Below are positions 51,006-51,419 of a stretch of 52,814 nucleotides of DNA, piece after piece (the first letter of the stretch is position 1; each line of letters begins with the position of its first letter). The position numbers were made by a program, and so were the translations under genes. This DNA is from a virus (Duplodnaviria > Caudoviricetes), in the IMG/VR virus record IMGVR_UViG_3300025151_000048, positions 1 to 52,814 of that record. One strand, written 5' to 3'. The notes beneath the pieces were generated by a model. It saw only the letters and a list, made by a program, of their open reading frames with translations, did not search any database and had not been told where the DNA came from.

Positions 51006-51419
51006 TGGAGTGTAAGTCGTTCCCGAAAACCGGCCCACCGGAAATCGGGGCATCTCCAAAGAGTAGTAATCGATTTAAAACTAATGCGCTACTCAGGGTT
51101 GGTGACTCCCAAGACAAATCACATTAGGGACTAAGTGCCGATATGTGAATCACCTGTAATAAGAAGAGACTGCTGGGGTTTCTTCCCCCTAAAATATAAT
51201 GGGTTAAAACACGAAGGACGGAATAATATAGTGGCTACTAAGCGGATACGCACAAAACCACAAATTTCTCAACTTGGTAAACGTGAGTCAGGTCAATGAG
51301 TTAGATATTAGACCTCAGAAAGCGTGGGTACGTGCACAGTGCCACCCAAAAATACTATAGGTGTGGGCACGCGTGCGGTGCTGTTACTTGACCTGAGAAA
51401 AGACGTACAAGCACACCTA
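51006..51419 (+). ncRNA. ~415 nt structured ncRNA between the mini-tmRNA and the tRNA
   Basis: No ORF of 60 aa or more; GC-richer; helices TGGAG/CTCCA, GAGTAG/CTACTC, TCACAT/ATGTGA, GAAGAGAC/GTTTCTTC, TAGGTGTG/CACACCTA, TCAGGTCAA/TTGACCTGA. Confidence 0.6.

What the first reader, a model, noticed from the sequence alone, without database searches (positions are those of the whole stretch)
51006..51419. Large structured ncRNA flanked by tRNA-like units, with pseudoknot and kissing-loop potential
Seen: fills the whole gap between the mini-tmRNA and the tRNA and has many helices. TCAGGTCAA (~51288) can pair with TTGACCTGA (~51388), which lies inside the TAGGTGTG/CACACCTA stem, forming a pseudoknot. 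A hairpin loop containing self-complementary GTGCAC (~51332) could pair with the neighbouring loop GCGTGCG or with a second molecule. Known: large phage ncRNAs such as GOLLD and ROOL lie beside tRNAs and multimerise. Inference: flanking tRNA processing would release a discrete ~420 nt RNA, possibly a new class.
Basis: partly seen in the sequence, partly recalled or inferred. Interest (0 to 1): 0.72.

Follow-up and report, generated by a model that had tools for sequence, protein, structure and literature searches.

The report
Array of small phage RNA modules
The gene-free gap beside this marine phage's only tRNA is not one big RNA but a string of five small folded RNA modules that related phages mix and match, and the commonest module carries a self-complementary loop that probably lets two copies join.

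Summary
The flagged stretch (51006-51419) is real non-coding, structured sequence. It is GC-enriched, has no ORF over 54 aa and lies between a tmRNA-like tRNA-like element (50917-51003) and tRNA(CAU) (51426-51500). It matches no Rfam family.

It is not one ~420-nt RNA family. It is a chain of five modules: A1, A2, A3, B and C. In related uncultured marine phage contigs these occur separately, in different orders, or not at all.

Module B (51201-51347) is the widespread one: 61 distinct complete copies in viral and marine metagenome contigs, and none in cultured phages. Its ~62-nt core is nearly invariant. It has a swappable arm (6 to ~170 nt) and a hairpin with compensatory changes at all 5 pairs. 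The hairpin loop holds a ≥6-nt palindrome in 59 of 61 copies, and the palindrome switches to other palindromes (GUGCAC, AUGCAU, GCGCGC, GUAUAC, GGCAUGCC).

The proposed pseudoknot is not conserved. Both arms sit in helices that pair locally, and module order varies.

Function is unknown. The best reading is tRNA-punctuated release of small, self-pairing RNAs. Earlier notes of this scan describe similar RNA elements on other phage DNA.

The parts
50917..51003 (+). tRNA-like element (TLE). It has a 7-bp acceptor stem GGGCGUG/CACGUCC with a G3:U70 pair, a T-arm, and ends ACUA. A ~45-nt insert replaces the anticodon arm. It forms the upstream boundary of the array.
   Evidence: Sub-threshold tmRNA match here (16.3 bits). 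Homologues in relatives score 32-38 bits against a gathering score of 47. blastn finds it in 42 loci. The acceptor pairing was read from the sequence.
51006..51058 (+). Module A1: a hairpin domain closed by UGGAG/CUCCA. It carries the recurring UGUAAGUC...GGCAUC motif.
   Evidence: MFE -20.4 kcal/mol, z -2.31. The one close homologue, in L167, is closed by GAUGAGG/CCUCAUC and followed by its own AU linker. The weak DUF3800-X hit (14.3 bits, E 9.3) is at chance level.
51060..51094 (+). Module A2: an optional hairpin with stem GAGUAG/CUACUC and loop UAAUCGAUUUAAAACUAAUGCG, which contains the palindrome AAUCGAUU.
   Evidence: An RNA-library contig of a relative joins 51059 directly to 51095, skipping 35 nt. 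In L152 and L188 the same loop sequence sits inside A3's variable hairpin. The palindrome is listed. Fold z -2.35.
51095..51189 (+). Module A3: helix GGUGA/UCACC, a variable hairpin, hairpin GAAGAGAC/GUUUCUUC and a C-run.
   Evidence: 10 distinct copies found. In an RNAalifold run on 9 of them, 6 of 19 pairs show compensatory changes. It is present on its own in RNA-library contigs of two studies.
51201..51347 (+). Module B, the widespread family.
- P1: 51201-04 with 51344-47.
- P2 (CACG/CGUG): 51210-13 with 51323-26.
- P3 base, GG(AC)GG with CCUC: 51216-21 with 51313-16.
- Variable P3 domain: 51222-51312.
- P4 (GGUAC/GUGCC): 51327-31 with 51339-43.
- P4 loop GUGCACA: 51332-38.
   Evidence: Pattern scans. 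Covariance model R1 scores 64.5 bits here, E 1.1e-15. Pair counts. Loop palindromes. The minimal forms fold into the same structure.
51288..51296 (+). Bases 51289-93 pair locally with ACUUG at 51272-76.
   Evidence: Consensus fold of 16 window-type B copies, with pair types UG/CG/UA at one position. ACCUAA/UUAGGU in L164 was read.
51358..51419 (+). Module C: an 8-bp closing stem (UAGGUGUG/CACACCUA) enclosing two hairpins.
   Evidence: 12 sequences; 7 of 19 pairs show compensatory changes. It lies upstream of B in some relatives and downstream in others.
51426..51500 (+). tRNA with anticodon CAU. It forms the downstream boundary of the array.
   Evidence: ARAGORN. Rfam tRNA, 58.4 bits.

Best explanation
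The stretch is a co-transcribed array of five independently evolving small structured-RNA modules (A1, A2, A3, B, C). It is joined by short AU-rich linkers and set between a tmRNA-like tRNA-like element and the phage's tRNA(CAU). It lies in the early, + strand region of an uncultured marine phage whose terminase is closest to those of podophages of Flavobacteriia.

Shown:
- The modules occur separately, in different orders and numbers, in related contigs.
- B, C and A3 each keep their helices through compensatory changes.
- B has a nearly invariant ~62-nt three-way-junction core and an arm (P3) that accepts inserts of 6 to ~170 nt.
- B's P4 loop stays palindromic through symmetric double changes.

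Inferred:
- The host's RNase P (at the 5' end of the tRNA) and RNase Z or a similar enzyme (at the 3' end of the tRNA-like element) cut the early transcript. The modules are then freed or trimmed at the AU-rich linkers as small stable RNAs.
- Module B pairs with a second copy through its palindromic loop, forming a symmetric kissing-loop dimer.

What the dimer does in infection is not known. It could be a scaffold, a decoy or an assembly. I rate a structural, self-associating role as more likely than a gene-control role.
For: Composite nature.
- L008 has only a short B after the tRNA-like element. L006 has the tRNA-like element and the tRNA but none of the modules.
- C lies upstream of B in L132, L133, L143, L159, L178, L182 and L197. 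It lies downstream in the window, L140, L160, L167, L174, L185 and L195.
- A2 is missing in an RNA-library contig and is relocated in L152 and L188.

B family.
- The exact 5' motif is in 15 viral and 66 metagenome stretches, and in 1 of 185,579 species genomes; that one is a phage-like contig in a MAG.
- There are 61 distinct complete copies.
- 92.1% of cells pair and 12 of 19 pairs show double changes. The covariation score is 0.117 against 0.061 when shuffled, reached by 0 of 500 shuffles. P3 has 5 of 6 and P4 5 of 5 pairs with double changes.
- When searched by the 3' motif alone, 8 of 10 loci have the exact 5' motif and 2 have one change. One of those changes is compensated at the P3 base.

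Palindromic loop.
- 59 of 61 copies hold a palindrome of at least 6 nt; the random expectation is 2.98, with a maximum of 11 in 2000 trials.
- The same argument was used for symmetric kissing loops of OLE and GOLLD (PMC12286853, passages read).

Strand and RNA level.
- G-U pairs are common in P3, C and A3.
- B always lies on the same strand as the tRNA.

tRNA linkage.
- 45 of 67 assessable copies have tRNA(CAU) within 20 nt downstream, and 10 more within 300 nt.
- 25 of 67 directly follow a tRNA-like element.

Presence in RNA libraries.
- Contigs from 4 runs of 4 studies cover the modules.
Against: - No ends, sizes or abundances of the RNAs were measured. The RNA-library data are assembled contigs, which show neither transcription nor processing.
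- P1 (GGGU/ACCC) and P2 (CACG/CGUG) of B never vary, so they rest only on energy folding.
- Thermodynamic z-scores of B and C are unremarkable, -0.2 to -1.7.
- Part of the palindrome (the outer G-C, or U-G plus G-C) could instead extend the P4 stem around a 4-nt loop, as the MFE does for the 8-nt loops. Only the palindromic inner four bases argue specifically for pairing between molecules.
- The AU-rich linker word TAAAATAT is not enriched in this AT-rich genome: 23 seen against 17.8 expected. A dedicated cleavage signal is therefore not shown.
- In the window itself, B and C can form an unusually good duplex of -17.8 kcal/mol.
- 12 of 67 B copies have no tRNA within 300 nt.
Confidence: 0.6

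Rival explanations
1. One large ~420-nt ornate RNA. The modules are domains of a single functional RNA that folds as a whole, with a B-C pseudoknot, and multimerises like GOLLD or ROOL.
For: - The modules are adjacent and very probably co-transcribed.
- RNA-library contigs of relatives run across several modules; one is a 545-nt contig covering TLE-C-B-tRNA.
- The window's B and C share 9-nt and 7-nt complementary runs and give the best B-C duplex of 14 loci, -17.8 kcal/mol.
- By my own count, C is commoner beside window-type B (about 10 of about 20) than beside other B types (about 5 of about 40).
- Two different palindromic loops (A2 and B) on one RNA could support chains.
Against: - Module order and content vary; B occurs without A or C in most contexts.
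- Both pseudoknot arms pair locally. The window's unique U in arm 2 is compensated inside C's own hairpin 2, as a U-A pair.
- Cognate B-C duplexes average -11.4 kcal/mol (n=9) against -11.5 for non-cognate pairs (n=72).
- C keeps GACCUGAG beside B copies that lack the partner sequence: L160, L167, L174.
- There is no GOLLD, ROOL or manA match.
Confidence: 0.15
2. Module B is a cis-acting element of the tRNA(CAU) precursor. It could be a self-cleaving ribozyme, or a leader that directs or controls maturation of the tRNA or of the tRNA-like element upstream.
For: - B is tightly and constantly spaced. It starts 5-6 nt after the discriminator base of the tRNA-like element and ends 7-12 nt before the tRNA.
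- It has an invariant junction core with variable outer stems, as ribozymes and aptamers do.
- From recall: small self-cleaving ribozymes next to phage tRNAs are known, for example HDV-like 'theta' ribozymes.
Against: - No match to any Rfam ribozyme or riboswitch family at E up to 10 or up to 1.
- I could not fit the core to the HDV-like, twister or hammerhead layouts by hand (inference).
- 12 of 67 copies have no tRNA within 300 nt, and 30 of 67 have no recognised element directly upstream.
- Some contigs carry two copies (L176, L190, L153).
- A palindromic loop is not explained by a cis role.
Confidence: 0.15
3. The conservation is at the DNA level (recombination cassettes, an origin, or protein-binding palindromes), or the gap is decayed tRNA genes, and no functional RNA is involved.
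For: - The modules shuffle like cassettes.
- The palindromes are restriction-site-like hexamers.
- The region lies in a plastic early region.
Against: - Helices are kept through G-U pairs that would be A-C on the other strand.
- The orientation is always that of the tRNA.
- The palindrome changes sequence but stays a palindrome, which argues against a sequence-specific protein site.
- The modules give no tRNA signal.
Confidence: 0.05

Closest known systems
GOLLD and ROOL RNAs (large ornate phage and prophage RNAs)
   Same: They are encoded by phages, often beside tRNAs; one GOLLD lies next to a Met-tRNA in a marine sample. Their function is unknown. They self-associate through kissing loops, and palindrome-to-palindrome covariation has been used as evidence for a symmetric kissing loop (PMC12286853, passages read).
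   Different: Those are single RNAs of about 500 to over 800 nt with one conserved global fold that build 8- to 14-mer cages. Here there are five modules of about 35-150 nt that shuffle among relatives. There is only one palindromic loop per B, so by itself it supports a dimer. No Rfam match was found.
manA RNA motif (RF01745) and other short self-assembling RNAs
   Same: Short (<200 nt) phage-associated RNAs that oligomerise through kissing loops (preprint 10.64898/2026.07.01.735769, Results part 1 of 2 read). Earlier notes of this scan found enlarged manA relatives in marine phages.
   Different: There is no manA match at E up to 10 in the window stretch, or up to 1 in 31.8 kb of related loci. 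manA uses several non-palindromic loop pairs to build pentamers. B has one self-complementary loop.
Stable RNAs 'species 1' and 'species 2' (rnaC, rnaD) of the phage T4 tRNA cluster
   Same: Small structured RNAs of unknown function that are transcribed and processed together with phage tRNAs.
   Different: There is no sequence relation. The T4 RNAs are fixed single genes and are not shuffled modules with palindromic loops.
HIV-1 dimerisation initiation site (DIS) hairpin
   Same: A 6-nt palindrome (GCGCGC or GUGCAC) in a hairpin loop, flanked by purine, that forms a symmetric kissing dimer (recalled). In B, every listed loop that keeps its palindrome is followed by A or G.
   Different: It is unrelated in origin and context. 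This is an analogy of mechanism only.
tRNA punctuation, t-elements and mascRNA-type processing signals
   Same: tRNA-like structures within longer transcripts recruit RNase P and RNase Z and so define the ends of neighbouring RNAs (established knowledge).
   Different: Processing has not been shown here. The tRNA-like element also has alanine-identity, tmRNA-like features, so it may have a role of its own.

Membership tests
GOLLD / ROOL (Rfam) | Match to the family covariance model | tested here: not met
   No match at gathering score in the whole window, at E up to 10 in 50850-51560, or at E up to 1 in 20 related loci totalling 31.8 kb. That both families have Rfam profiles is stated in PMC12286853.
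GOLLD / ROOL (Rfam) | One large (>500 nt) RNA with a conserved global architecture | tested here: not met
   The stretch is five modules that occur separately and in different orders.
manA RNA (RF01745) | Match to the family covariance model | tested here: not met
   No match.
Known self-cleaving ribozyme classes and riboswitches in Rfam | Match to any family model | tested here: not met
   Only tRNA, sub-threshold tmRNA and chance-level hits were listed.
Known self-cleaving ribozyme classes and riboswitches in Rfam | Self-cleavage or ligand binding | not testable with these tools
   This needs in-vitro assays.
Symmetric kissing-loop dimer (mechanistic class; OLE L9.3, GOLLD L21a, HIV-1 DIS) | An apical loop that is self-complementary and covaries from one palindrome to another | tested here: met
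   59 of 61 loops are palindromic. The switches GUGCAC to AUGCAU, GCGCGC and GUAUAC are symmetric double changes at the outer, middle and inner pair respectively. There are two single-mutant exceptions.
Symmetric kissing-loop dimer (mechanistic class; OLE L9.3, GOLLD L21a, HIV-1 DIS) | Physical dimer formation | not testable with these tools
   This needs a native gel, SEC or cryo-EM.
tmRNA (for the flanking element 50917-51003) | Model match at or above the gathering score, and a tag reading frame | tested here: inconclusive
   16.3 bits here and 32-38 bits in relatives, against a gathering score of 47. Only the tRNA-like ends match. ARAGORN calls no tmRNA and I saw no tag frame.
tRNA (for 51426-51500) | Cloverleaf with an anticodon | tested here: met
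   ARAGORN calls tRNA-Met (CAU). Rfam tRNA scores 58.4 bits.

The most novel reading that the evidence does not exclude
Module B, together with the other loop-palindrome modules of these phages (A2, and the inserts carried by the tRNA-like elements), is a new family of small, modular, self-assembling phage RNAs. In this reading a fixed three-way-junction scaffold dimerises through a symmetric kissing loop and displays a swappable arm. When several palindromic modules stay on one transcript, they would build larger RNA-only assemblies in the infected cell. This would be a miniature, Lego-like counterpart of GOLLD, ROOL and manA. A less likely but still open alternative is that the invariant core of B is a new self-cleaving ribozyme that matures the neighbouring tRNA(CAU).
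Probability: 0.3. Interest if true: 0.8.

Novelty: new variant of a known kind. Interest (0 to 1): 0.62.

Why it matters
Phage RNAs that sit beside tRNAs and stick to themselves (GOLLD, ROOL, manA) have recently been shown to build RNA-only cages, yet nobody knows what they are for. This locus shows a simpler and more tractable case.
- B is a 62-nt conserved scaffold, abundant in ocean phage contigs.
- Its single self-complementary loop changes only into other palindromes.
- Its third arm is freely exchanged among relatives.

That gives a direct, cheap test: native gels of a 62-mer and its loop mutants. It also gives a natural series of 'cargo' arms to compare.

The module shuffling also shows that phages recombine RNA domains much as they recombine protein domains. 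The tRNA-like flanks suggest that marine phages use tRNA punctuation to produce these RNAs.

Tried and rejected
- **Close relatives through the flanking proteins.** The 150-aa and 147-aa proteins gave no confirmed locus in viral contigs. The GroEL gene gave 10 loci. Only L008 carries module B, and L006 has the tRNA-like element and the tRNA without any module.
- **blastn against cultured phages.** The 621-nt stretch matched only through the tRNA, in 116 records. An 82-nt B gave only two 18-nt chance matches. No cultured phage in that collection has B.
- **Rfam.** The DUF3800-X hit on A1 (14.3 bits, E 9.3) is at chance level and did not recur in relatives. The 'permuted tmRNA' hit (17.1 bits) reflects only the T-arm and acceptor strand.
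- **A two-piece or permuted tmRNA.** I considered this and dropped it. The tRNA-like element closes on its own 5' strand, and I saw no tag frame.
- **HDV-like, twister, hammerhead and K-turn layouts for the B core.** I tried to fit these by hand and none fitted. This is inference, not a test.
- **A specific linker signal.** TAAAATAT is not enriched in the window, and neither is GTGCAC (3 seen, 5 expected).
- **Neighbouring genes.** Pfam and PHROGs gave no RNA-related function for them.
- **RNA-library data.** Parts of the stretch without contig cover in runs X1, X5 and X6 carry no weight. All runs found held only small shares of the words (0.09-0.17).
- **Literature.** Four searches found no description of these modules. 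PMC10690425 lists 8,495 candidate structured RNAs from IMG/VR in supplementary tables that I could not open (I read passages only). B may be among them unnamed.
- **L144.** This locus holds the 20-base 5' motif, but only a weak remainder (15.5 bits). I did not count it.
- **Rows dropped.** The count of 61 complete B copies leaves out copies cut by contig ends, L144, and the two variant copies of L206 and L207, which the 5' pattern behind that count did not find. One search was a first loop count that lost the 7-nt-loop rows to alignment gaps (44 rows); one search replaces it. One of the 10 A3 copies (L207, nearly identical to L206) was left out.
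Full report
**What is there.**
- The window is an 87%-complete viral contig of 52,814 bases. It is AT-rich, with structural genes on the minus strand and an early region on the plus strand from about 47.1 kb.
- Its large terminase is closest to those of podophages of Flavobacterium, Cellulophaga, Tenacibaculum and Maribacter. Identity is 46-62% and all 87 matching records cover at least 80% of the query. The host is therefore probably a marine member of the Flavobacteriia.
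- The flagged stretch lies between a tRNA-like element (50917-51003) and tRNA(CAU) (51426-51500).
- The tRNA-like element has a 7-bp acceptor stem with G3:U70, a T-arm and an ACUA end. It gives a sub-threshold tmRNA match.
- The stretch has no ORF above 54 aa. Its GC is 0.42-0.52 against 0.26-0.34 around it.
- It matches no Rfam family at E up to 10, apart from a chance-level hit on its first 53 bases.
- The fold of the whole stretch is only modestly better than shuffles: z -1.83, with 3 of 100 shuffles as good.

**It is a chain of modules, not one RNA.**
- Relatives found through the phage GroEL gene gave the first clue. L008 has the tRNA-like element followed by only ~110 nt that match window 51201-51347. 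L006 has the tRNA-like element and, 1.4 kb further on, the tRNA, with protein genes between them and none of this RNA.
- Two blocks shared by the window and L008 gave a 20-base pattern. It is found in 15 viral stretches, 66 marine metagenome stretches and 1 contig among 185,579 species genomes. That one contig sits in a MAG but carries the same early phage genes.
- Mapping all recognisable elements in these loci shows five separable pieces in the window: A1 (51006-51058), A2 (51060-51094), A3 (51095-51189), B (51201-51347) and C (51358-51419). They are joined by short AU-rich linkers.
- C lies upstream of B in seven loci and downstream in seven. A3 occurs with or without A2. A2's loop sequence sits inside A3's variable hairpin in L152 and L188. 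A1 has one close homologue, in L167, with a compensated closing stem and its own linker.
- Contigs assembled from four marine RNA libraries of four studies show the same mosaic. One joins 51059 to 51095, so it lacks A2. One 545-nt contig has the order tRNA-like element, C, B, tRNA. One has B with a short arm. Two cover A3 alone. These are contigs from RNA libraries, so they show presence there. They do not show transcription, ends or levels.

**Module B.**
- There are 61 distinct complete copies, 61 to 217 nt long.
- A covariance model built from 24 short copies finds 91 matches (76 distinct) in 683 kb of fetched loci. It finds none in the other nine GroEL relatives.
- The fold has these parts:
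  - P1: GGGU/ACCC.
  - A junction: (U)AAAA.
  - P2: CACG/CGUG.
  - An internal loop: AA opposite NGRAAG.
  - The P3 base: GG(AC)GG paired with CCYC.
  - A P3 extension that ranges from a UAAC tetraloop to about 170 nt of further helices. Some copies have a second insertion site just 3' of it.
  - P4: a 5-bp hairpin directly abutting P2 and P1.
- The minimal 62-mers fold this way on their own, with ensemble frequency 0.34-0.51.
- On the model-based alignment, 92.1% of cells pair and 12 of 19 pairs show changes on both sides. The covariation score is 0.117 against 0.061 in shuffles (0 of 500 reach it) and at most 0.049 with slid partners. All five P4 pairs and five of six P3 pairs covary.
- P1 and P2 never vary, so they rest on energy alone.
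- The invariance of the 5' half is not only an effect of how I searched. A scan with the 3' motif alone returned 10 viral loci. Eight have the exact 5' motif and two have one change. In L207, G to A at the P3 base is matched by C to U opposite.
- In the 61-sequence alignment, the 3' blocks CC.C.G.AAGCGUG and ACCC are invariant.

**The palindromic loop.**
- The 7-8-nt P4 loop holds a palindrome of at least 6 nt in 59 of 61 distinct copies. Random loops of the same composition give 2.98 on average and never more than 11 in 2000 trials.
- The palindromes are:

| Palindrome | Copies |
|---|---|
| GUGCAC (4 of these extended to 8 nt) | 52 |
| AUGCAU | 2 |
| GCGCGC | 2 |
| GUAUAC | 1 |
| GGCAUGCC (in an enlarged loop) | 2 |

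- The three hexamer switches are symmetric double changes at the outer, middle and inner pair of the hexamer.
- The two exceptions (GUGCAU, and GGCAUGUC in the enlarged loop) are each one mutation away from a palindrome.
- The outer pair or two could simply lengthen the hairpin. The inner four bases cannot pair within one hairpin, yet they too are always self-complementary (UGCA, CGCG, UAUA, CAUG).
- Kretsch et al. used exactly this argument for the symmetric kissing loops OLE L9.3 and GOLLD L21a (PMC12286853, passages read).
The suggestion of pairing with the neighbouring GCGUGCG loop is not: most B copies have no C nearby, and half of the C copies have GAGUGUG there.

**Modules C and A3.**
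- C (12 sequences) is an 8-bp closing stem around two hairpins.
- A3 (9 of the 10 distinct copies) has 6 of 19 pairs with compensatory changes and a hairpin of variable length and sequence.
- G-U pairs in B, C and A3 would be A-C on the other strand. B always lies on the strand of the tRNA. The structures therefore belong to the plus-strand transcript.

**The proposed pseudoknot.**
- The arms exist.
- In 16 copies of the window type, UCAGGU (51289-93) pairs with ACUUG (51272-76) just upstream. One position varies UG/CG/UA while staying paired, and L164 has ACCUAA/UUAGGU.
- Arm 2 lies in hairpin 2 of C. The U that is special to the window there is compensated inside C, as a U-A pair.
- C keeps GACCUGAG next to B copies that lack the partner sequence (L160, L167, L174). 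Other C copies beside window-type B have lost it (L133, L178, L195).
- Duplex energies of B and C from the same locus average -11.4 kcal/mol (n=9), against -11.5 for mismatched loci (n=72). The window's own pair is the best, at -17.8.
- The pairing may form in this phage, but it is not a conserved feature.

**Context and likely biogenesis.**
- Of 67 assessable B contexts, 45 have tRNA(CAU) within 20 nt downstream, 6 have C then the tRNA, 4 have something else then the tRNA within 300 nt, and 12 have none.
- Upstream, 25 follow a tRNA-like element directly, 8 follow A3, 4 follow C, and 30 follow something else.
- 68 of 69 ARAGORN calls in these loci are tRNA(CAU).
- B starts 5-6 nt after the discriminator base of the tRNA-like element and ends 7-12 nt before the tRNA.
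- From the established specificity of RNase P and RNase Z for tRNA-shaped structures, I infer that these enzymes cut the early transcript at both flanks and so release the array. Whether the modules are then separated at the AU-rich linkers is open. The linker word is not enriched over this AT-rich background.

**Comparison and novelty.**
- The nearest known things are GOLLD and ROOL, manA, and the T4 stable RNAs. GOLLD and ROOL are phage RNAs beside tRNAs that self-associate. manA is a short phage RNA that builds oligomers by kissing loops (preprint 10.64898/2026.07.01.735769, Results part 1 of 2 read). The T4 stable RNAs are co-processed with tRNAs (recalled).
- Membership in GOLLD, ROOL, manA or any other Rfam family was tested and not met.
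- Four literature searches found no description. The unnamed candidates in the supplements of PMC10690425 could not be checked.
- Earlier notes of this scan describe kindred elements on other DNA of marine Flavobacteria-type phages: tRNA-shaped RNAs with self-complementary hairpin tips, modular intercistronic cassettes, and tRNA top-half mimics. I used these as leads only. I tested the manA lead here and it did not hold for this locus.
- I class the finding as a new variant of a known kind. It is a tRNA-linked, self-pairing phage RNA, but it is small, modular and shuffled rather than large and monolithic.

**Limits.**
- No physical or expression measurement was possible.
- The function of any module is unknown.
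- Dimerisation is inferred from sequence only.
- All homologues were found by exact-pattern scans, so more divergent members were missed.

Noticed in passing
window 49453-49721: A second tRNA-like element whose ~230-nt insert contains GCGUGCACGC (GTGCAC at 49633) and a UAUAAGUC...GCAUC motif. That motif also occurs in A1 and in the P3 arm of some B copies (L155, L182, L205). Parts of it have homologues in 20 loci.
   Followed up: partly
window 50917-51003 and homologues in 42 loci: The tRNA-like element has alanine identity (G3:U70, discriminator A). In relatives it matches both ends of the tmRNA model at 32-38 bits (gathering score 47), without a tag frame. Its insert varies and shares sub-motifs with free modules.
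   Followed up: partly
L176 (310-456 and 1301-1362 on its reverse strand), L190, L153: Some contigs carry two B copies about 1 kb apart. One is long and follows a tRNA-like element. The other is minimal and lies just before the tRNA.
   Followed up: no
L208 (MAG contig JABSQH010000086.1, labelled Ilumatobacteraceae): This 6.7-kb contig carries the same early-region elements and early genes as the window. It is probably a phage fragment binned into an actinobacterial MAG.
   Followed up: partly
window 51426-51500 and the tRNAs of 60+ loci: The only tRNA of these phages reads CAU. In most relatives it has a paired 1:72 and lacks three G-C pairs in the anticodon stem. It may therefore be an elongator Met or a lysidine-type Ile2 tRNA for AUA codons rather than an initiator.
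   Followed up: no
window 51068-51075 and 51367-51376: There are further palindromes in the array. AAUCGAUU in the A2 loop is kept in all homologues seen. GCACGCGUGC in C hairpin 1 is present in only about half of the C copies.
   Followed up: partly
L132, L143, L159, L162, L164, L178, L198, L208 (inside B) and L140 (inside the P3 arm): A portable ~50-nt sub-module (ACUUUGCGUUCUGAGC...GAUGUUCACUUAGU) is inserted at two different places of B in different contigs.
   Followed up: no
window 216-9698 (minus strand) and 44130-45695 (minus strand): A 3160-aa ORF and a phage GroEL gene. The GroEL is 66-81% identical in 10 IMG/VR contigs.
   Followed up: no
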